Assembly: GCA_017609385.1 (NCBI GenBank)
Contig: JAFCEA010000004.1
Coordinates: 1-37,730 of the forward strand
Source of the DNA: Candidatus Woesearchaeota archaeon
Lineage (GTDB): Archaea; Nanobdellota; Nanobdellia; Woesearchaeales; CG1-02-33-12
Length of the DNA stretch: 37,730 nt
Direction: 5' to 3'
A program made the translations under genes and the position numbers. The notes under the pieces are model-generated. The model worked only from the letters and a program-made list of their open reading frames with translations. It did no database searches and was not told the origin of the DNA. Of this stretch, positions 4,245 to 34,883 are shown in pieces (positions within the stretch are counted from its first letter, which is position 1; every line of letters begins with the position of its first letter).

Positions 4245-4370
4245 GCCGCTGTAGCTCAGCCTGGTTAGAGCGCTACGCTCATATGTATTGAGCGATGAGA
4301 GCTTTGCTCGATGATTAACTCATCTAACTGAGGTACGTAGAGGTCACGGGCTCAAATCCCGCCAGCGGCA
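4245..4370 (+). tRNA. tRNA-Met(CAT) elongator with 51-nt intron at 37/38 (4284-4334)
   Basis: Acceptor GCCGCTG/CAGCGGC; anticodon stem CTACG/CGTAG; CT-CAT-A; BHB central helix CTCA/TGAG. TATA TTTATAAA lies upstream. Confidence 0.9.
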
Positions 4371-25932: not shown

Positions 25933-26022
25933 TGGGCCGGACGAGATTCGGACTCGCGACCACCTGATTACTTTCAACCTTTGTTAAAAGTCAGATGCTC
26001 TACCAGGCTGAGCTACCGGCCC
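25933..26022 (-). tRNA. tRNA-Lys(TTT) with 16-nt intron at 37/38 (25969-25984)
   Basis: Acceptor GGGCCGG/CCGGCCC; TCTGA-CTTTTA|ACAAAGGTTGAAAGTA|A-TCAGG; T loop TCCGAAT. Confidence 0.88.
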
Positions 26023-26361: not shown

Positions 26362-26484
26362 TCCCCGCTGCCGGATTCGAACCAGCAACCTTTCGGTAAC
26401 AGCTGTCTGCATTTCATCCATTCTCACGCGAGATAGTCGGGCAGAATCTACAGCCGAACGCTCTAGCCGTTGAGCTAAGCGGGG
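26362..26484 (-). tRNA. tRNA-Tyr(GTA) with ~50-nt intron at 37/38 (26398-26447)
   Basis: C1:G72 acceptor CCCCGCT/AGCGGGG with A73; TTCGG-CTGTAG|intron|A-CCGAA. Confidence 0.87.
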
Positions 26485-28296: not shown

Positions 28297-30771
28297 TTAA
28301 AAAACCTTACTAACATGCTCGCTCTTGGTTACTCTTAATATATTATCAACAAAACTCTCTATCTTGCTTTCATGGCTGACTGTTATTATCTGCTTTATAT
28401 TTAACTGGTCAAGCACATCTTTCATCTTATCAAGCTGGTCTGTTGAAAATCCATCTGTTGGCTCATCCAGAATTATGATATCCTTTGTTTTTATTCCCCC
28501 AATTAAATCATTTATTACCCTATTGAGGGCAAGCCTGTAAGCTAAGGCACATGATGTTCTCTCACCACCGCTAAGATATTCAATGCTTGTTTCATAATCA
28601 TTCTGCTCTATTATTGGCGTAAACTCATCATCAAGTCTTACACCAATGGTCTCTTCCTCCATAAGAATATTAAACCAGTTTTGGAAGAATTCATTAAACT
28701 CTTGGTAAACCCTTAGCATAATCTGCCTTTCCATCATTGACATAAGCTTTATAAAATATTCATCAAGCCAGTTCCTCATTTGTTTTAGATGGTTAATTTT
28801 TTCCTTGATTCTTAATTTTTCATCAATTTCTTTTTCCAATCCTTTAATTGCTTTATTAATGCCTTCTGCTTCCTTTTCAAGCTGTGCTTTTTTTATTGCT
28901 AAAAGTGTTTCATCTGAGATTGCCTTCTCAAGCTCTTGTTTTATTATTTTGTAGTTTTGCTCAATTCCTTCAAATCTCTTTATCTTATCATCTAGCTCTA
29001 TTTTCAAATTGTTTATCTCTCCAACATCTTTTTTTAATAATGCAATGTTCTTTAAAATCTCTTCCCTACTTTTATTTTTTTCATCCATAAGATTTATTAG
29101 GTTCTGCCTTTCATTTAACATAGTGTTGGATTTATGAATTTTTTTAAGTAAATCTTTTGATTCAGAAATCTTATTTTTTATTTTATCTAAATCTTTTGAA
29201 TTTATAAAATCAAGCTCTTTCTTAATCTTCTCCTCATCTAAACTTAACCTATTAAGCAACTTTTGTTTTTCAATAATCTCTTTTCCCAGTTGCCCAAACC
29301 TTTCTATTTCAATCTTTAATCTATCAGTGGTTTTTTCTTTTTGCAGCAGGCTCTCTAGCTCTGCATTTAAATCTTTAAGCTCATCAATAACTTTCTTTTT
29401 TCTTTTATTTTCTTGCTTTAAGGTTTCAACATAATCTTTTATTTTTTTATCTTCAAGATCATTAATGTATTTTTTGTGTTCTGATGATAATTTCTGTGAG
29501 CATATAGGACATTTATCTGATTTTAAGATGTCTTTTTTTATTTTTTCGGATTTTTCTTTATTGACTTCATTTTCTTTAATTATTAAACTTATTTTTTTAA
29601 TCTCCTCTTCTTTTTCAACAATTTCTTTCTTAAGATCTTCTTTTTTGTGGATATCATGCTGAAGCTGGTCAAACATATTTTTCTTTATAATAATCTTTTT
29701 TGACTCTTCTGATTTTGTTAATATTCCTTCTTCTAGTTCTTTTTTTCTTCTTTGCAATGACTTATTTTTTTCAGTCAGTTCAACTTTCCTCTGCATTAAG
29801 TAATTATATTCTTCCTCTTTCTTTATTATTAATTTTTCCACTTCTGATTCATTTTCTTTTATTGGTTTTATCTCAAATTTCTCTATTTTTGTATTGAACT
29901 CTTTTATGCTTTTATCCAGAACTTCTATATTTTCTTTGTAATTTTGTACTAACATAACCTTTTCTTTAAGTCTTGTGTTTGCTATTTCCTCTTTTTTCCT
30001 TAAATCATTTAATTCATTAATCCTTTTTTCCAGTTGGTTTATACTTTCTTTCTTTTCCTTAACAACAGATTCCGCTGCCTTTATCTTTGGTTTTATCTCA
30101 TCTACTTTTGTTATCACATTCCTTAACTCATTTTCTCTTTCCTTTTTCTGTATTTTTTTTTCTTCAAGGTCAGCAATCATCCCATTAAATTCCTTTGTTT
30201 TCTCTCTTATTTCCCTTATTATGATTTGACTGTTTTCCCTGATTCTTTTGTATTTGTCAATCTGAAAAACTCTTCTTAAAGTGTCAAGCCTGTAATCTTT
30301 GTCATCTAACAATATCTGTTTCATCTCTTCCTGTGGCGTATAAACAGTATACCTGTAAATCAATGATTTGGTCTTTGTAACAAGTTCTTTGGGATAACCC
30401 AAAAGGTCAAGAATTTTTGATTTTAATTCAACAGCAGTTCCCTCTGTTTTTTTGTTATTTATTATTATAAACCCAGAGTCCTGTCTTACATCACCTCTTT
30501 TCCTTTTTAATGTTCTTTTTATTATTATATCTTTATTGTCAAGACTAAATTTAAGTTCAACAGAACCCTTGTTTTTGCCGTTTCTTAAAAGAGAATTACC
30601 AGACAAAGACCTCATTATGCCAAAAAGTGCAAATTCTATGGCTAGTAGTATGGTTGATTTTCCGCTACCTATATCACCACTTAAAAGAACAGAGCCACGT
30701 GGAAAATTTATGGTTTGGTTGAGATAGCTTCTTATGTTCTCAAGCTTCACATATTTTATTATCATACACAT
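28297..30771 (-). CDS. rad50: Rad50/SbcC SMC-like ATPase
   Basis: Walker A GDIGSGKS, long coiled coil with central CPIC zinc hook, LSGGE signature, IILDEPT Walker B, VSH. Confidence 0.9.
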   Translation of the reverse strand: MCMIIKYVKLENIRSYLNQTINFPRGSVLLSGDIGSGKSTILLAIEFALFGIMRSLSGNSLLRNGKNKGSVELKFSLDNKDIIIKRTLKRKRGDVRQDSGFIIINNKKTEGTAVELKSKILDLLGYPKELVTKTKSLIYRYTVYTPQEEMKQILLDDKDYRLDTLRRVFQIDKYKRIRENSQIIIREIREKTKEFNGMIADLEEKKIQKKERENELRNVITKVDEIKPKIKAAESVVKEKKESINQLEKRINELNDLRKKEEIANTRLKEKVMLVQNYKENIEVLDKSIKEFNTKIEKFEIKPIKENESEVEKLIIKKEEEYNYLMQRKVELTEKNKSLQRRKKELEEGILTKSEESKKIIIKKNMFDQLQHDIHKKEDLKKEIVEKEEEIKKISLIIKENEVNKEKSEKIKKDILKSDKCPICSQKLSSEHKKYINDLEDKKIKDYVETLKQENKRKKKVIDELKDLNAELESLLQKEKTTDRLKIEIERFGQLGKEIIEKQKLLNRLSLDEEKIKKELDFINSKDLDKIKNKISESKDLLKKIHKSNTMLNERQNLINLMDEKNKSREEILKNIALLKKDVGEINNLKIELDDKIKRFEGIEQNYKIIKQELEKAISDETLLAIKKAQLEKEAEGINKAIKGLEKEIDEKLRIKEKINHLKQMRNWLDEYFIKLMSMMERQIMLRVYQEFNEFFQNWFNILMEEETIGVRLDDEFTPIIEQNDYETSIEYLSGGERTSCALAYRLALNRVINDLIGGIKTKDIIILDEPTDGFSTDQLDKMKDVLDQLNIKQIITVSHESKIESFVDNILRVTKSEHVSKVF

Positions 30772-30921
30772 AAAAAATATTTCCCAAGTTTTTATATTTA
30801 ATTAAACTAAAAACCATATATTATAAAAATCACCACTACTAAATAGAAAAATATTTAAATAGAGGATAGTTCCTTTACCAATAGGAAAATACAGCACTAC
30901 TAACGCAGCTAGGAGAATAAA

Positions 30922-31119
30922 ATGGATACAAGTCAAATAGAAAGAATAGTTGATGGTGAAATTATGTATGTCAATAAACATAAGGAAGGTGCAGATATAA
31001 TAATCAAAACAATGAACTCAAAGTTTAAAGTAATTCACTGTGGGAAAGATAAGTCTCAATTTTATAATAAAATAAAACCTAGGCAACATCTTATTTATAC
31101 AAAATCTTATTTATATTGA
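30922..31119 (+). CDS. Small hypothetical protein, paralog of 33749-33979
   Basis: SD AGGAG; shares M.T..IE.I..GEI...I..K...VIH...F..KI...IY.K..LY with the 33749 ORF. Confidence 0.6.
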   Translation: MDTSQIERIVDGEIMYVNKHKEGADIIIKTMNSKFKVIHCGKDKSQFYNKIKPRQHLIYTKSYLY

Positions 31120-31231
31120 GAGGAGAGAACTATGTGTTGTCAATAGTAAAAATCAACACAAGCTTTATATACTTCAATGTTTATTAGTATAATATTAGTT
31201 ACTAAACTAAAAAAATATGGGGTAAAATAAA

Positions 31232-31486
31232 ATGGCAAGCCAAGTATTAGAAGAAAAGTTAAGTTCTGTTCCAGAAAAGGAACAAAAAGATGGAACATAC
31301 CAGCCACCAGATGAATATATGGGTTGTCCAAAAAAAACATACGCAGGACAACCGAAACTAGAGCATGAGAAAACTATGAATGTAATTAATGAAGCAATGG
31401 TCAATGCAGATACAATTGAACTTACACCAACACGAAGATTAGGGCTTGATGCCTGTGGCTGTACAGGAAACGGTTCTTGTAGATGA
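31232..31486 (+). CDS. Putative RiPP precursor peptide, Cys-rich C-terminal core (ACGCTGNGSCR)
   Basis: 84 aa, charged leader-like N-terminus, C-terminal CxCxxxxxC; directly upstream of a radical SAM/SPASM gene; TATA CTTTATATA upstream. Confidence 0.65.
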   Translation: MASQVLEEKLSSVPEKEQKDGTYQPPDEYMGCPKKTYAGQPKLEHEKTMNVINEAMVNADTIELTPTRRLGLDACGCTGNGSCR

Positions 31487-31488
31487 AA

Positions 31489-31563
31489 CTCTTAATCTTT
31501 TTGTATGAAGTGCTGAATACGCGGAGGCGTGTGTTTTCATTCACTTCAACTTTGTTATCAAGA
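31489..31563 (+). repeat. attC-like imperfect palindrome 1
   Basis: CTTAAT..GT(A)TGAAGTG..TACGC-GGAG-GCGTG..CACTTCAAC-TTT-GTTATCAAG, starting just after the stop codon. Confidence 0.4.
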
Positions 31564-31590
31564 ATATAAGGAAATTATTGAGAGAGAAGT

Positions 31591-32865
31591 ATGTATAAGG
31601 CTAGCCGGTATAATAATTTTTTTTTGGAAAAAGATTCTATTTTTTTGTTTAATTCATTTAGCAGGGCTTCTATTAAAGTCAAAAAAGCTGAGTTAGGAAA
31701 AGTAAAGGCTATATTAAGAAAAAAAGATCCATGTACAGGAAAAAATAAGAAATATCAGGATATATTGATAAAAAATGGTTTTATTTTATCAGGTAATATC
31801 AATGAAATTGAAATTCTTGAATATTTATATAATGCAAATTATTTCCAAACAGATAAAATCACTGTTGCATTAGTACCAACATTACGATGTAATTTTAAAT
31901 GCCCCTATTGTTTTGAGGCAGGACGCGGAAAAGAAAATAATGAAGTTAAAGACTATTTTGATGTTTTAAAGAAGTTTGCTAATAAAAATTTTTGTAATAA
32001 AAAAAGAGTACATATTAGCTTATTTGGTGGAGAACCTCTTTTAAAAAAAGATGAAATTTTTTCTTATCTAGATTACCTATCAATACAAAGTAAAAAATAT
32101 GGTTATGAGTTAAGTACTGATATTGTAACAAATGGATTCTTATTGGATGAAGATACAGTTAGTGCATTATTAAAGTATAATTGTGTTTCAATTCAAGTTA
32201 CCTTAGATGGTCATAAAGAAACTCACAATAAACTTCGTGTATTACATAATAATGGTAAAACCTTTGACACGATTGTCAATAATTTTACAACAGCAATACG
32301 ATATGCTATTAAAATAAAATCAAATATTCAGTTTGTACTACGAATAAATTTATTAAATCAAAGTGTTGATGATGTTAAGTCAATTTTTAATTTGTTTGAT
32401 AAGGACGAGAGAAAAAAAATAAATATATATTTTAGGCCAATCTATTCAACTAGTCATTGCAATGTATCTAGTAGTAATACAATTTTTGATTTAAAAAAAT
32501 TTTATGATGAAGCAAATAAGTATGGATTTAGTATACTTAAAAGTACTTATTATCTACAATATTGTGAATCAGATGGAGGAATTAATTTTTTTTATGTTAC
32601 CCCTGATTTAAAAATATGGAAATGCATAAACGAATCGACAGAAACAGCTGATATTGGCTATATTGATAAAACAGGTACTACACAACTAAATTCAATGCAT
32701 ATAGCAAAGTGGTATCAAAAATCAAATCCTTTCAAGGATGAAAAATGCCGGAAGTGTTATTATTTACCAGTATGTTATGGTGGGTGTCCTCTTCATTATA
32801 TTAAAACAGGAAAACGGAGATGTACAAGTAAAGATATGACTATAACTCCTTATTTTTATTCGTGA
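31591..32865 (+). CDS. Radical SAM/SPASM domain peptide maturase
   Basis: CNFKCPYC, FGGEPLL, VTNG, QVTLDG...HN..R, and SPASM C...KC...CRKCYYLPVCYGGCP...C. N-terminal KASRYN...FNS resembles an RRE-like region. Confidence 0.9.
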   Translation: MYKASRYNNFFLEKDSIFLFNSFSRASIKVKKAELGKVKAILRKKDPCTGKNKKYQDILIKNGFILSGNINEIEILEYLYNANYFQTDKITVALVPTLRCNFKCPYCFEAGRGKENNEVKDYFDVLKKFANKNFCNKKRVHISLFGGEPLLKKDEIFSYLDYLSIQSKKYGYELSTDIVTNGFLLDEDTVSALLKYNCVSIQVTLDGHKETHNKLRVLHNNGKTFDTIVNNFTTAIRYAIKIKSNIQFVLRINLLNQSVDDVKSIFNLFDKDERKKINIYFRPIYSTSHCNVSSSNTIFDLKKFYDEANKYGFSILKSTYYLQYCESDGGINFFYVTPDLKIWKCINESTETADIGYIDKTGTTQLNSMHIAKWYQKSNPFKDEKCRKCYYLPVCYGGCPLHYIKTGKRRCTSKDMTITPYFYS

Positions 32866-32876
32866 GAATCAATAAC

Positions 32877-33025
32877 ACTTAACGTGTATCTGAAGTCCTG
32901 AACAAGCGAGCAATTTGGATGGAGTAGCGAAGATGAAGCACACCCACATATTAAAATGGAGTTCTTTGTTTACATTATTGAAAACTTGTGCTCATGAATT
33001 GAAGCTGTTTAGACTTTGTTATAAG
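32877..33025 (+). repeat. attC-like imperfect palindrome 2
   Basis: ACTTAAC (RYYYAAC) GTGTATCTGAAGT ... TTTAGAC-TTT-GTTATAAG; both ends resemble palindrome 1. Confidence 0.4.
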
Positions 33026-33109
33026 CAGTTGCTAAGTAATTGATTTCTTTTTTTTGTTTAGTCGTCTAAGCGAAGCCAAGCCCCTTGTATTGATGTCAAT
33101 AATAGAACC

Positions 33110-33396
33110 CCTTTTTTCTAGTTGATTTATGTTTTCTTTTTTCCTTAACAACAGACTCTGCTGTATTTATCCTTGGTTTTATCTCATCTATTTTTGTTAT
33201 TACATTCCTTAACTCATCATTTCTTTGCTTTTTCTGCATTTTTTTCTTCAAGGTCAGAAACTATCCAACTAAATTCCTTTGTTTTCTCTTTTATTTCTCT
33301 TATTATAATTTGACTATTTTCCCAAGTTTTTATATTTAATTAAACTAAAAACCATATATCATAAAAATTACTACTCCTAAATAGAAAAATATTTAA
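33110..33396 (-). pseudogene. Decayed duplicate of the rad50 5' region and its upstream intergenic/promoter segment
   Basis: 33110-33323 aligns to 30022-30239 with substitutions and small indels. It is fused at TTTCCC to 33318-33396, which aligns to 30780-30858. Confidence 0.85.
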
Positions 33397-33748: not shown

Positions 33749-33979
33749 ATGAAGACAAGAAAAATAGAAGAAATATTAAGCGGGGAAATTATAAATATAA
33801 CAGAGAAAGAAAATTGTATTCATATATTAGTTAAGGTTTCTGAAGGTGAGTCACTAGTGATTCATTACAATGGCTATAACCCATTGTTTAACAAAAAAAT
33901 AATTGGTAAGGACATTATCTACGCAAAAGATAATAAATTGTATGTTGGAGACCATAACAAATACGTTGAAATAAATTAA
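33749..33979 (+). CDS. Small hypothetical protein (start ATG 33749, SD GTGAGG), paralog of 30922-31119
   Basis: MKTRKIEEILSGEI...VIH...F.KKI...IYAK..LY. Confidence 0.6.
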   Translation: MKTRKIEEILSGEIINITEKENCIHILVKVSEGESLVIHYNGYNPLFNKKIIGKDIIYAKDNKLYVGDHNKYVEIN

Positions 33980-34037: not shown

Positions 34038-34883
34038 TTGATGATAGTTGAAACGCTTCTGGAAACACTAAAAATCCTTGTTATAGTCTTTGTATTAATG
34101 GTTATTGTTGAATTTTTTGAGTTAAAATATGGGAATAAGATTAGGAAGAATATCACAAAAAAGCCATTAACCCAATATGGTTTATCATCTTTGCTGGGAG
34201 TTACACCTGGTTGTTTTGGTGCATTCTTTATTGTTTCATCTTATGCGCATGGCATTGTTGGCTTTGGTGCTTTGACTGCAGTTATGATTGCAACAGCAGG
34301 AGATGAGGCCTTTATTATGCTTGCAAAAATACCTGGAACTGCATTATTGATATTTTTCCTCTGCCTTATTCTTGGAGTTATTGCCGGCTTTTTAGCTGAC
34401 AAGCTTATTAAAAAAACAAAATTAAAAATATCCAGACCATGCGAGATTAAGATTCATAAAAAGCAGGATCTGCAGGGAAAATCATTTTTTACTCATTTTT
34501 TAAAAAAGCATGTTTATGGCCACATAATCAAAGAGCACATACCAAGATTATTTCTGTGGCTTTTCTTTACAATGTTAATAATAAACTCCTTAATGCTGAG
34601 ATTTGATATTGGATCAATACTGCCGCAAAATAAATTAGCATTAATATTTATAGCTGCCTTGGTTGGAATAATTCCTGTTTCAGGCCCGCATATTGTTTTT
34701 GTTTTATTATTTGCCCAGGGCATAATCCCATTTTCAGTATTGCTAGTAAGCTCAATAGTCCAGGACGGCCACGGCCTCCTGCCCTTGTTATCTTATTCTG
34801 TAAAAGATACATTTTATGTGAAGATATTTAATGTCTTGTTTGGCTTAGGAATAGGCTTAATACTTCTTGCTATTGGAATTTAA
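34038..34883 (+). CDS. Putative Mn/metal(loid) permease (ArsP_2/DUF2899-like)
   Basis: LGVTPGCFGA, IATAGDEAF, GIIPVSGPH, SIVQDGHGLLPLL; multiple TM segments. Confidence 0.8.
   Translation: MMIVETLLETLKILVIVFVLMVIVEFFELKYGNKIRKNITKKPLTQYGLSSLLGVTPGCFGAFFIVSSYAHGIVGFGALTAVMIATAGDEAFIMLAKIPGTALLIFFLCLILGVIAGFLADKLIKKTKLKISRPCEIKIHKKQDLQGKSFFTHFLKKHVYGHIIKEHIPRLFLWLFFTMLIINSLMLRFDIGSILPQNKLALIFIAALVGIIPVSGPHIVFVLLFAQGIIPFSVLLVSSIVQDGHGLLPLLSYSVKDTFYVKIFNVLFGLGIGLILLAIGI

What the first reader, a model, noticed from the sequence alone, without database searches (positions are those of the whole stretch)
31232..32865. Two-gene RiPP system (CxCxxxxxC-tailed peptide + radical SAM/SPASM) in a DPANN-like archaeon
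Seen: an 84-aa ORF ending RRLGLDACGCTGNGSCR, followed by a full radical SAM/SPASM enzyme with an N-terminal RRE-like region. The rSAM gene is visibly more AT-rich and uses CGA/CGG/CGT Arg codons, which are rare in the flanking core genes. Established: rSAM/SPASM enzymes next to Cys-rich peptides install thioether crosslinks (sactipeptides, ranthipeptides). Inference: a horizontally acquired and possibly new precursor class in a reduced-genome archaeon. No protease or exporter is adjacent.
Basis: partly seen in the sequence, partly recalled or inferred. Interest (0 to 1): 0.75.

Follow-up and report, generated by a model that had tools for sequence, protein, structure and literature searches.

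The report
Mobile archaeal cysteine-peptide radical-SAM cassette
A tiny-genome archaeon has recently picked up a two-gene cassette, a small peptide with an invariant three-cysteine tail and the iron-sulfur enzyme that most likely cross-links it, and the same unnamed peptide family also occurs in other archaea and in bacteria.

Summary
ORF 31232-31486 (84 aa) and a 424-aa radical SAM/SPASM enzyme (31591-32865) are a genuine precursor/maturase pair. A peptide with the invariant core D-A-C-x-C-T-G-N-(0-4 residues)-C lies beside the homologous enzyme in 25 of 29 related loci and in 0 of 131 loci with more distant radical SAM enzymes. A profile search found 65 peptide clusters, 60 with the full motif.

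The conserved unit is the last 36 residues. The first 48 are a fast-evolving extension seen only in close relatives.

The enzyme has the CxxxCxxC motif, a 7-Cys SPASM domain and an N-terminal leader-binding (RRE) fold like CteB and TigE. A complex model puts the leader motif on that fold (0.61; best control 0.02). It reaches no curated family cut-off, and the peptide matches no Pfam or NCBIfam model.

Horizontal acquisition is well supported: atypical GC and Arg codons, 94-96% identity to a relative whose flanks are 78-84% identical, a different insertion site with permuted order, and 0 of 400 other genomes of the phylum.

Thioether cross-linking is the likeliest chemistry but is untested. This is a new variant of a known kind, of moderate interest.

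The parts
30774..31150 (+). Block A: promoter region plus the 65-aa ORF (30922-31119). It travels with the cassette.
   Evidence: It is 95.5% identical to L001 3396-3772, where it lies after the rSAM instead of before the precursor. The 65-aa ORF has a GGAG-type ribosome-binding site, no family match and a 31%-identical paralog at 33749-33979.
31148..32882 (+). Block B: the precursor and rSAM cassette, with its own upstream region and 17 nt after the stop codon.
   Evidence: It is 93.8% identical over 1735 nt to L001 1676-3398 and to L003 1227-2949. The L001 flanks match G000 at only 83.5% and 77.7%.
31164..31171 (+). TTTATATA, a candidate archaeal TATA box about 60 nt upstream of the precursor start.
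   Evidence: Read from the sequence and conserved in L001 and L003. Promoter function is inferred from the recalled archaeal TATA consensus and was not tested.
31232..31486 (+). Precursor ORF of 84 aa. Start M1 is preceded by GGGGT at 31219-31223.
   Evidence: ORF. The SD-like motif resembles those of other genes in the window. The frame stays open in L001 and L003, with two 6-nt in-frame indels.
31232..31375 (+). N-terminal extension (residues 1-48), lineage-specific and fast-evolving.
   Evidence: It is 81% identical to L001, against 91-96% in the neighbouring segments. dN/dS is 1.07-1.23, and L001 versus L003 shows 7 nonsynonymous and 0 synonymous changes. The extension is absent from most family members.
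31376..31483 (+). Conserved 36-aa precursor unit (M49-R84): the leader motif MNVINEAMVNAD followed by the core.
   Evidence: Aligns with 23 other precursors. Residues 1-12 of this unit contact the enzyme's N-terminal domain in the complex model. A 36-aa form is on record as P0145.
31448..31480 (+). Core D73-A-C75-G-C77-T78-G-N80-G-S-C83, the presumed site of modification.
   Evidence: D, A, C, C, T, G, N and C are invariant in 24 of 24 sequences. The full motif is present in 60 of 65 profile hits.
31506..31548 (+). Hairpin in the 104-nt spacer between the precursor and the rSAM, a possible attenuator.
   Evidence: RNA fold of 31480-31595 gives -26.2 kcal/mol, z = -1.99, with 8 of 200 shuffles folding as well. 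This is weak, and the function is inferred.
31591..31854 (+). rSAM residues 1-88: N-terminal RRE-like (winged-helix) leader-binding domain.
   Evidence: Model elements are strands 2-4, 8-13, 16-21 and 26-30 and helices 32-42, 51-61 and 72-84. It is aligned with the N-terminal domains of CteB and TigE. Interface residues are 18-31 and 55-79. The TigE RRE is residues 3-85 (PMC10878394, passages).
31855..32550 (+). rSAM residues 89-320: radical SAM core with C100-x3-C104-x2-C107.
   Evidence: Pfam PF04055 covers residues 95-246. C100, C104 and C107 are invariant in 105 sequences.
32551..32865 (+). rSAM residues 321-424: SPASM domain with 7 Cys (C325, C345, C386, C389, C395, C399, C411), plus the stop codon.
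   Evidence: TIGR04085 scores 47.4 bits against a cut-off of 27 at 32572-32814. The Cys are invariant or nearly so. The motif Cx2Cx5Cx3C is read from the sequence.
33110..33396 (-). Remnant of rad50 (codons about 178-250) fused to a second copy of the rad50 promoter region. It is the right-hand repeat bracketing the insertion.
   Evidence: Direct repeats 30022-30239 / 33110-33323 (85-89%) and 30780-30858 / 33318-33396 (95%). 540 nt are missing between them in the second copy.

Best explanation
This is a working, recently acquired two-gene RiPP cassette.

Proposed steps:
1. The precursor is translated, probably as 84 aa from M1.
2. [quoted passage not shown]
3. The invariant C-terminal core D73-A-C-G-C-T-G-N-G-S-C83 enters the active site.
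4. Reductive cleavage of SAM at the C100/C104/C107 cluster gives a 5'-deoxyadenosyl radical that abstracts a hydrogen from an acceptor residue.
5. A core cysteine, probably held at the open iron of auxiliary cluster I of the 7-Cys SPASM domain, forms a thioether with that carbon. Up to three such links (-2 Da each) would give a compact polycyclic peptide. The invariant Asp, Thr and Asn are the obvious acceptors.

What is shown, by comparison and models only: the gene pair, the domain set, purifying selection on the enzyme, and recent transfer.

What is inferred: leader binding (model only), thioether chemistry and its topology, and the fate of the product. Leader removal and export are not encoded in the block.

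The cassette entered next to rad50, most simply by recombination of a circular or tandem intermediate.
For: Pairing:
- The motif peptide is found beside the homologous rSAM in 25 of 29 loci with at least 34% identity, and in 2 further loci with partial rSAM matches. It is in 0 of 51 other metagenome loci and 0 of 80 viral loci.
- The core is invariant in 24 of 24 aligned precursors and complete in 60 of 65 profile hits.

Enzyme:
- PF04055 scores 66.6 bits and TIGR04085 SPASM scores 47.4 bits against a cut-off of 27. The CxxxCxxC motif and 7 SPASM Cys are conserved in 105 sequences.
- The nearest curated families are all Cys-peptide maturases: CefB 192.6, TIGR04463 183.1, Clo7bot 168.9, PapB 87.8 and SCIFF 71.9 bits.
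- A TIGR04463 member, CrpC, installs ranthionine links (PMC13692751, abstract and section 8).
- The profile's best solved relative is CteB (E = 3.6e-35). The model (pLDDT 94.8) matches CteB at Z 25.5 over residues 5-424.

Leader binding:
- The complex score is 0.61 (runs 0.49, 0.61, 0.64) against a best control of 0.02. That mark was reached by 58 of 80 solved complexes and 2 of 110 mismatched pairs. The runs share at least 50% of contacts, and partner pLDDT is 50-52.
- Contacts are precursor residues 1-12 with enzyme residues 18-31 and 55-79.

Selection: rSAM dN/dS is 0.22, 0.12 and 0.16.

Transfer.
Against: - No mass or activity data exist. No RNA run holds the stretch, so expression is unknown.
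- The enzyme is below the cut-off of every curated equivalog, so its chemistry cannot be transferred by membership.
- Close structural relatives do other reactions: TigE makes cyclopropylglycine (PMC10878394), SuiB makes a C-C link and anSME oxidises Cys or Ser (PDB titles; chemistry recalled).
- The complex pass may reflect likeness to solved RRE-leader complexes (CteB, SuiB and ChlB appear). My own alignments were used, so its calibration holds only roughly. The core was not placed with confidence.
- The PqqD sequence model does not detect the RRE.
- No protease or exporter is in the block, whereas bacterial relatives have ABC exporters and often a second rSAM. The archaeal product may therefore be less modified, or not secreted.
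- The start codon (M1 or M49) is unresolved.
Confidence: 0.6

Rival explanations
1. It is the same precursor and enzyme pair, but the radical chemistry is not thioether formation. Options include a C-C or C-O cross-link, epimerisation, or oxidation or rearrangement of a core residue. The invariant cysteines would then serve as cluster or metal ligands, or as later disulfides.
For: The top structural and sequence neighbours include non-thioether enzymes: TigE at Z 22.3 over residues 1-424, ChlB at Z 23.9, anSME at about Z 23 and SuiB at Z 19.6. No equivalog cut-off is reached. PMC10288494 (passages) stresses that full-length similarity mispredicts function in this superfamily.
Against: All five best NCBIfam matches are maturases of Cys-rich peptides. 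Three Cys are invariant next to invariant Asp, Thr and Asn. The 7-Cys SPASM leaves one open iron site as in CteB (recalled from Grove et al. 2017, not read here). The GYW motif that PMC10878394 gives as diagnostic for cyclopropyl synthases is not seen in the sequence.
Confidence: 0.2
2. The cassette is a recently arrived passenger that is not used in this host. It would be silent or unable to finish its product, because leader protease, exporter and the second rSAM of bacterial clusters are missing.
For: The composition is still foreign. The insertion scar (rad50 remnant) is undecayed. The cassette is absent from the same-genus genome G314 and from 399 other genomes of the phylum. No accessory genes lie in the block.
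Against: Both ORFs are intact and every invariant residue is kept. The rSAM is under purifying selection among the three near-identical archaeal copies and against L002 (dN/dS 0.12-0.22). Seven archaeal-clade loci (L001-L007) keep the same minimal two-gene form.
Confidence: 0.1
3. The rSAM/SPASM enzyme acts on another substrate, a protein or a small molecule, and the upstream ORF is an unrelated small gene or a chance ORF.
For: An 84-codon ORF is not rare in this AT-rich DNA: many spurious ORFs of 60-100 aa are listed. Residues 1-48 are under no detectable constraint.
Against: Strict co-occurrence and the invariant core. The leader motif docks on the RRE in the model, with controls at 0.00-0.02. 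The gene order of precursor immediately before the enzyme recurs in 19 of the 25 loci and is divergent in 6.
Confidence: 0.04

Closest known systems
CteB / CteA (SCIFF, thermocellin) of Clostridium thermocellum, PDB 5WGG/5WHY
   Same: It is the best solved relative by sequence profile (E = 3.6e-35) and by fold (Z 25.5, 379 residues aligned, model 5-424 to chain 1-446). It has the same three-domain plan: RRE, rSAM core and 7-Cys SPASM. It acts on a small Cys-bearing precursor encoded next to it.
   Different: Identity is only 18-19%. The SCIFF maturase model TIGR03974 gives 71.9 bits against a cut-off of 425. The precursor has three conserved Cys in a D-A-C-x-C-T-G-N..C core rather than the six-Cys SCIFF pattern, and no SCIFF model matched any of 24 precursors.
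TIGR04463 family (CrpC / CrpA of Methanococcus voltae)
   Same: It is the second-best NCBIfam match, nearly full length (residues 13-415, 183.1 bits). It is an archaeal example with RRE, rSAM and SPASM, shown to install ranthionine thioethers (PMC13692751, abstract and section 8).
   Different: It is far below the cut-off of 525 bits. CrpA is a large protein with a 17-residue Cys motif repeated ten times (PMC13692751, section 8). Here there is one short core in a 36-84-aa peptide.
CefB (NF038107, Cys-every-fifth) and Clo7bot (TIGR04334) maturases
   Same: They are the best and third-best NCBIfam matches over the whole length (192.6 and 168.9 bits). Their family names describe maturases of short Cys-rich peptides.
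   Different: Both cut-offs are 600 bits. The precursors do not match any NCBIfam model. I found no paper on either family, so their chemistry is unknown to me.
PapB / PapA (freyrasin) ranthipeptides
   Same: It is a radical SAM/SPASM thioether synthase acting on Cys and Asp pairs (PMC9413430, abstract only). In bacterial members of this family the second rSAM of the cluster is nearest to PapB (162-182 bits).
   Different: The window's enzyme scores 87.8 bits against a cut-off of 340. The core has no repeated C-x3-D units.
ACGX-type and other small rSAM plus Cys-peptide cassettes of DPANN and CPR organisms
   Same: They are compact, mobile, curated-family-less cassettes of a Cys peptide and an rSAM/SPASM enzyme in ultra-small genomes.
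   Different: No sequence look-alike of either gene exists in the scan's index. The ACGX maturase model TIGR04340 gives 33.8 bits against a cut-off of 400. No methyltransferase is in this block, although L007 has one downstream.

Membership tests
Radical SAM superfamily | CxxxCxxC cluster motif and a match to PF04055 above the gathering score. | tested here: met
   C100-x3-C104-x2-C107 is invariant in 105 sequences. PF04055 scores 66.6 bits against 29.5.
SPASM subfamily | C-terminal domain with the Cx2Cx5Cx3C motif and further Cys for two auxiliary 4Fe-4S clusters. | tested here: met
   TIGR04085 scores 47.4 bits against 27. C325, C345, C386, C389, C395, C399 and C411 are conserved. Pfam PF13186 did not appear at E <= 0.1.
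RRE-dependent RiPP maturases | N-terminal winged-helix RiPP recognition element that binds the leader. | tested here: met
   By fold: model residues 1-88 are aligned with the N-terminal domains of CteB (5-424 to 1-446) and TigE (1-424 to 6-461). The complex model places the leader on residues 18-31 and 55-79. By sequence: the PqqD model PF05402 has no match. Binding itself was not measured.
CefB (NF038107) | Whole-protein score of at least 600 bits. | tested here: not met
   192.6 bits. Ten relatives also stay below the cut-off.
TIGR04463 (CrpC-type) | Score of at least 525 bits, with a large repeat-bearing Cys-rich protein substrate. | tested here: not met
   183.1 bits. The substrate here is a 36-84-aa peptide with one core.
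Clo7bot maturase (TIGR04334) | Score of at least 600 bits. | tested here: not met
   168.9 bits.
PapB ranthipeptide maturase (NF047865) | Score of at least 340 bits. | tested here: not met
   87.8 bits.
SCIFF maturase (TIGR03974) with SCIFF peptide | Score of at least 425 bits, with a six-Cys precursor family. | tested here: not met
   71.9 bits. 0 of 24 precursors match any precursor model.
ACGX system (TIGR04340) | Score of at least 400 bits. | tested here: not met
   33.8 bits over model positions 12-150 only.
NxxC-type thioether peptides (NxxcB; family name seen in the abstract of PMC11851443, motif recalled) | Conserved Asn-x-x-Cys units as cross-link sites. | tested here: not met
   The window's core does contain N80-G-S-C83. 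In 47 of the 60 full-motif family members, however, Cys follows Asn directly, so the NxxC spacing is not a family feature.
Ranthipeptides / sactipeptides (class) | Enzymatically installed Cys-S to carbon thioether (non-alpha or alpha carbon). | not testable with these tools
   This needs MS/MS, thiol labelling and desulfurisation or NMR on the modified peptide.

The most novel reading that the evidence does not exclude
The invariant nonapeptide D-A-C-x-C-T-G-N-C is kept unchanged from DPANN archaea and methanogen-related archaea to bacteria. It may not be one more variable bacteriocin. It could be the scaffold of a fixed, small, triply thioether-bridged 'knot', with each of the three Cys linked to one of the invariant Asp, Thr and Asn. 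Such a product would act as a conserved signal, metal-binding peptide or cofactor-like molecule. The 2.1-kb two-gene archaeal cassette would be its minimal self-sufficient biosynthetic unit, spreading horizontally among anaerobes.
Probability: 0.2. Interest if true: 0.7.

Novelty: new variant of a known kind. Interest (0 to 1): 0.5.

Why it matters
It defines a RiPP precursor family with an unusually rigid core, at least 60 sequence clusters, and its own radical SAM/SPASM subfamily. No Pfam or NCBIfam model names either one, and no paper I could search mentions the motif.

The archaeal form is a minimal system of two genes and about 1.7 kb, which makes it easy to reconstitute. It could therefore settle the chemistry for the whole family, including its bacterial members.

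It also documents very recent gene flow of a secondary-metabolite cassette between reduced-genome archaea, with the insertion scar still visible.

The limits are plain:
- Peptide-modifying rSAM cassettes in DPANN and CPR organisms have turned up repeatedly in this scan.
- rSAM-dependent RiPP clusters are already reported across DPANN (PMC12144867, passages).
- The kind of system is therefore expected. What is new is the family.

Tried and rejected
- Expression: the run search listed no RNA holder.
- Viral carriage: the best viral-contig relative of the enzyme is 31% identical, and none of the 80 loci has the motif.
- Integrase link: L001 and L003 have a tyrosine recombinase (PF00589, E = 1.8e-44) just upstream of the cassette. 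Its G000 ortholog (83.5%, contig C66) has other neighbours, and no recombinase is near the cassette in the window. An about 16-40-nt similarity at block junctions could be an att-like core, but the 16-mer occurs only once in G000. This is left as a lead.
- The 227 nt between the cassette and the rad50 remnant (32883-33109) has no meaningful repeat elsewhere in G000. Rfam found only four tRNAs in the window.
- Known-family assignment failed for the enzyme, for the second rSAM of bacterial clusters and for the precursors.
- Literature: motif strings and family names gave nothing relevant. Only PMC13692751 mentions TIGR04463.
- PMC10288494 reports six uncharacterised precursor groups only in its supplements, which were closed, so I cannot exclude that this family is listed there.
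- The intergenic hairpin is only marginally better than shuffles (z = -1.99).
- (translation of the rad50 remnant) failed on stop codons and was not pursued.
- The scan's own index holds no look-alike of either gene.
Full report
OBSERVATION

ORF 31232-31486 (+) encodes 84 aa ending ...RRLGLDACGCTGNGSCR. ORF 31591-32865 (+) encodes 424 aa.

The larger protein matches Pfam Radical_SAM (66.6 bits, cut-off 29.5) and the SPASM model TIGR04085 (47.4 bits, cut-off 27). It is the only SPASM protein found in the 988-kb, 92.7%-complete genome.

The compositional remark is quantitatively right:
- The rSAM gene has 26.3% GC and 15.1% GC3, against 34.4% and 29.8% for 25 other long ORFs of the window.
- It uses CGN for 8 of 14 Arg codons, against 27 of 434.

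The host is an archaeon with a reduced genome:
- It has intron-bearing tRNAs, a split RNA polymerase B subunit and ribosomal protein L15e.
- Its closest public relatives are labelled Nanoarchaeota and Woesearchaeota.

IS IT A REAL PAIR?

The enzyme has 530 word-sharing homologs at E <= 1e-3.

I collected 2 genome loci, 80 metagenome loci and 80 viral loci, and scanned all six frames for the core.

A peptide carrying D-A-C-x-C-[T/S]-G-N was found as follows:
- In 25 of the 29 loci whose enzyme is at least 34% identical (L001-L029). It lies directly upstream on the same strand in 19 and divergently in 6.
- Among the four misses, L011 and L027 carry other Cys-rich ORFs, L019 has none that I could see, and L028 has no upstream DNA.
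- In two further loci with partial but close enzyme matches (L033, L051).
- In none of the other 51 metagenome loci, which have enzymes of 32% identity or less. One chance 'DAC.C' pentamer appeared with the looser pattern.
- In none of the 80 viral loci.

In an alignment of 24 non-identical precursors, D, A, C, C, T, G, N and the last C are invariant.

A profile of that alignment, run against 1.84 billion representative proteins, found 65 proteins at E <= 1e-3 and 13 at E <= 1e-10:
- Nearly all are 33-88 aa long.
- 60 of the 65 carry the full motif.
- In 47 of those the third Cys follows Asn directly. In 12 the 'x' is Gly, and Cys then usually follows after 2-4 residues, as in the window.
- The five exceptions are two variant cores, one frameshifted copy, one copy ending at Asn and one 1681-aa protein that is probably spurious.

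WHICH PART IS THE PRECURSOR?

Across the family the conserved unit is about 35-45 aa. It has an N-terminal leader motif (hydrophobic-V-I/V-K/N-E-A) and the C-terminal core. In the window this unit is M49-R84.

Evidence on residues 1-48:
- The 48 residues before M49 are found only in the near-identical copies L001 and L003.
- There the frame stays open, with two 6-nt in-frame indels.
- M1 is preceded by a GGGGT motif like the ribosome-binding sites of other genes, whereas M49 has a weak one.
- This stretch is the most diverged part of the block, at 81% identity against 91-96% around it.
- Its dN/dS is 1.07-1.23. L001 versus L003 shows 7 nonsynonymous and 0 synonymous changes.

I conclude that the 84-aa form is probably translated in this lineage. 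Its first 48 residues are either unconstrained or diversifying, and the start remains open.

THE ENZYME

- Conserved cysteines: the CxxxCxxC motif (C100/C104/C107) and seven SPASM cysteines (C325, C345, C386, C389, C395, C399, C411; Cx2Cx5Cx3C) are conserved in 105 sequences.
- Model: an AlphaFold2 model built on that alignment has mean pLDDT 94.8.
- Best solved relative: CteB, by profile (E = 3.6e-35) and by fold (Foldseek E = 3e-18; Z 25.5, 379 residues aligned, rmsd 4.9, model 5-424 to chain 1-446).
- Second full-length match: TigE aligns over model residues 1-424 (Z 22.3). Its paper assigns residues 3-85 to an RRE (PMC10878394, passages).
- N-terminal domain: residues 1-88 (four strands and three helices) are thus RRE-like by fold. 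The PqqD sequence model does not see them.

A complex prediction of the enzyme with the 36-aa unit scored 0.61 (runs 0.49, 0.61, 0.64), against 0.02 for the best of three controls:
- That mark was reached by 58 of 80 solved complexes and 2 of 110 mismatched pairs.
- The runs share at least half of their contacts, and partner pLDDT is 50-52.
- The confident contacts are precursor residues 1-12 with enzyme residues 18-31 and 55-79, the canonical strand-plus-helix groove.
- Similar complexes are solved, and I used my own alignments. The pass therefore shows likeness and does not show binding.

The enzyme is under purifying selection (dN/dS 0.22, 0.12 and 0.16).

WHAT FAMILY?

The five best NCBIfam matches are all maturases of Cys-rich peptides, and all are far below their cut-offs:

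| Family | Score (bits) | Cut-off (bits) |
|---|---|---|
| CefB | 192.6 | 600 |
| TIGR04463 | 183.1 | 525 |
| Clo7bot | 168.9 | 600 |
| PapB | 87.8 | 340 |
| SCIFF | 71.9 | 425 |

- Ten relatives behave the same way.
- The ACGX model suggested by earlier notes of this scan gives 33.8 bits against 400.
- None of 24 precursors matches a Pfam or NCBIfam precursor model.
- The motif strings occur in no paper of the searched library.
- Only one paper mentions TIGR04463. It shows that a member, CrpC, installs ranthionine links in a large repeat protein (PMC13692751).
- PMC10288494 mentions six uncharacterised precursor groups only in supplements that I could not open.

MECHANISM

The best-supported reading is thioether cross-linking of the three core cysteines, probably to non-alpha carbons. 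It rests on three points:
- All nearest curated families are Cys-peptide maturases, and one of them is now shown to make ranthionines.
- The three Cys are invariant and are interleaved with invariant Asp, Thr and Asn, which are all acceptor types known from ranthipeptides (recalled).
- A 7-Cys SPASM leaves one open iron, as in CteB (recalled).

This is inference. TigE, SuiB, ChlB and anSME are equally close in fold and do other chemistry. I put thioether chemistry at about 0.6.

CONTEXT AND MOBILITY

The window holds two blocks, A and B.
- Block B (31148-32882: precursor, spacer, enzyme) is 93.8% identical to L001 and L003.
- Block A (30774-31150: promoter plus a 65-aa ORF) is 95.5% identical.
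- The flanks of L001 match the window's genome at only 83.5% (recombinase gene, contig C66) and 77.7% (3.5 kb, contig C14).
- The order is A-B in the window and B-A in L001 and L003, with the junctions overlapping by 3 bp.

In the window the insertion lies between an intact rad50 and a repeat:
- The repeat is made of an internal rad50 fragment (33110-33323, 85-89% identical to 30022-30239) fused to a second copy of the rad50 promoter (33318-33396, 95%).
- This pattern fits recombination of a circular or tandem intermediate that carried rad50-proximal homology. That is inference.

Distribution and phylogeny:
- The enzyme was found in 1 of 401 sampled genomes of the phylum at E <= 1e-40, namely G000 itself. 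It was not found in the same-genus genome G314 (93% complete).
- In a tree of 105 enzymes, an 18-row clade (SH-aLRT 99) holds all four archaeon-labelled rows: the window, Methanoperedens, Woesearchaeota and Thermoplasmatota.
- That clade lies inside a 74-row group (96) that also holds a Clostridia-labelled clade.
- Only 9 of the 105 rows are named and the root is the midpoint. A bacterial origin followed by spread among archaeal phyla is therefore likely but not shown.

Neighbouring genes in related clusters:
- Bacterial clusters add a second, PapB-like rSAM (L009, L013, L015, L017) and ABC exporters (L008, L012, L016, L021).
- Archaeal loci keep only the two genes. L007 adds a methyltransferase.
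- How the leader is removed and whether the product leaves the cell are therefore unknown here.

VERDICT

- It is an uncurated precursor family with its own rSAM/SPASM subfamily, caught in a DPANN-type archaeon shortly after horizontal arrival.
- The kind of system is known. Similar small cassettes recur in DPANN and CPR genomes, and rSAM-dependent RiPP clusters are reported across DPANN (PMC12144867, passages).
- I therefore rate it a new variant of a known kind, with moderate interest.

Noticed in passing
window 33110-33396 (with 30022-30239 and 30780-30858): There is a decayed partial copy of rad50 (about codons 178-250, 85-89% identical) fused to a second copy of the rad50 promoter region (95%). 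540 nt, including the rad50 N-terminus, are missing between them. It looks like the scar of the recombination that brought in the cassette.
   Followed up: partly
window 30922-31119 and 33749-33979: Two small paralogous ORFs (65 and 76 aa, 31% identity, E = 4e-6 for the pair) each sit downstream of a copy of the rad50 promoter region. Neither has a family match. The 65-aa gene travels with the cassette and differs from L001 by 6 nonsynonymous and 0 synonymous changes.
   Followed up: partly
window 31232-31375: The N-terminal extension of the precursor evolves faster than the surrounding non-coding DNA. It is 81% identical, against 91-93% around it, and has dN/dS of at least 1. This could be diversifying selection or a recombination patch.
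   Followed up: partly
window 4245-4370, 25933-26022, 26362-26484: Rfam finds four tRNAs, three of them 90-126 nt long and presumably intron-bearing. ARAGORN reports only two of the four.
   Followed up: no
window 31506-31548: A nested hairpin lies in the spacer between the precursor and the enzyme (z = -1.99). It may be an attenuator that sets the peptide-to-enzyme ratio, but it is not clearly supported by covariation in L001 and L003.
   Followed up: partly
L009, L012, L013, L015, L016, L017, L021 (bacterial metagenome loci): The same precursor family occurs in bacterial clusters, several from contigs labelled as human gut metagenomes. These clusters carry a second PapB-like rSAM/SPASM enzyme, ABC exporters and conserved 285-327-aa proteins with no family match.
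   Followed up: partly
L001 671-1489 and L003 222-1037: A tyrosine recombinase (PF00589, E = 1.8e-44) sits about 190 nt upstream of the cassette in both relatives. Its ortholog in the window's genome (contig C66, 83.5%) has unrelated neighbours.
   Followed up: partly
window 34038-34883: There is an ArsP-type permease (PF11449, E = 6e-36; NCBIfam arsenic efflux, 132 bits against a cut-off of 100) 1.2 kb downstream. It lies outside the transferred block, so it is probably unrelated to the peptide.
   Followed up: no
L013 2677-2841; profile hit P0128: Some bacterial precursors carry a fourth Cys after the core (for example ...VLVKGTAVAPKKVVEVMAQDLCKSELVSPLDACTCTGNCTSKC). This suggests extra cross-links where a second rSAM is present.
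   Followed up: no
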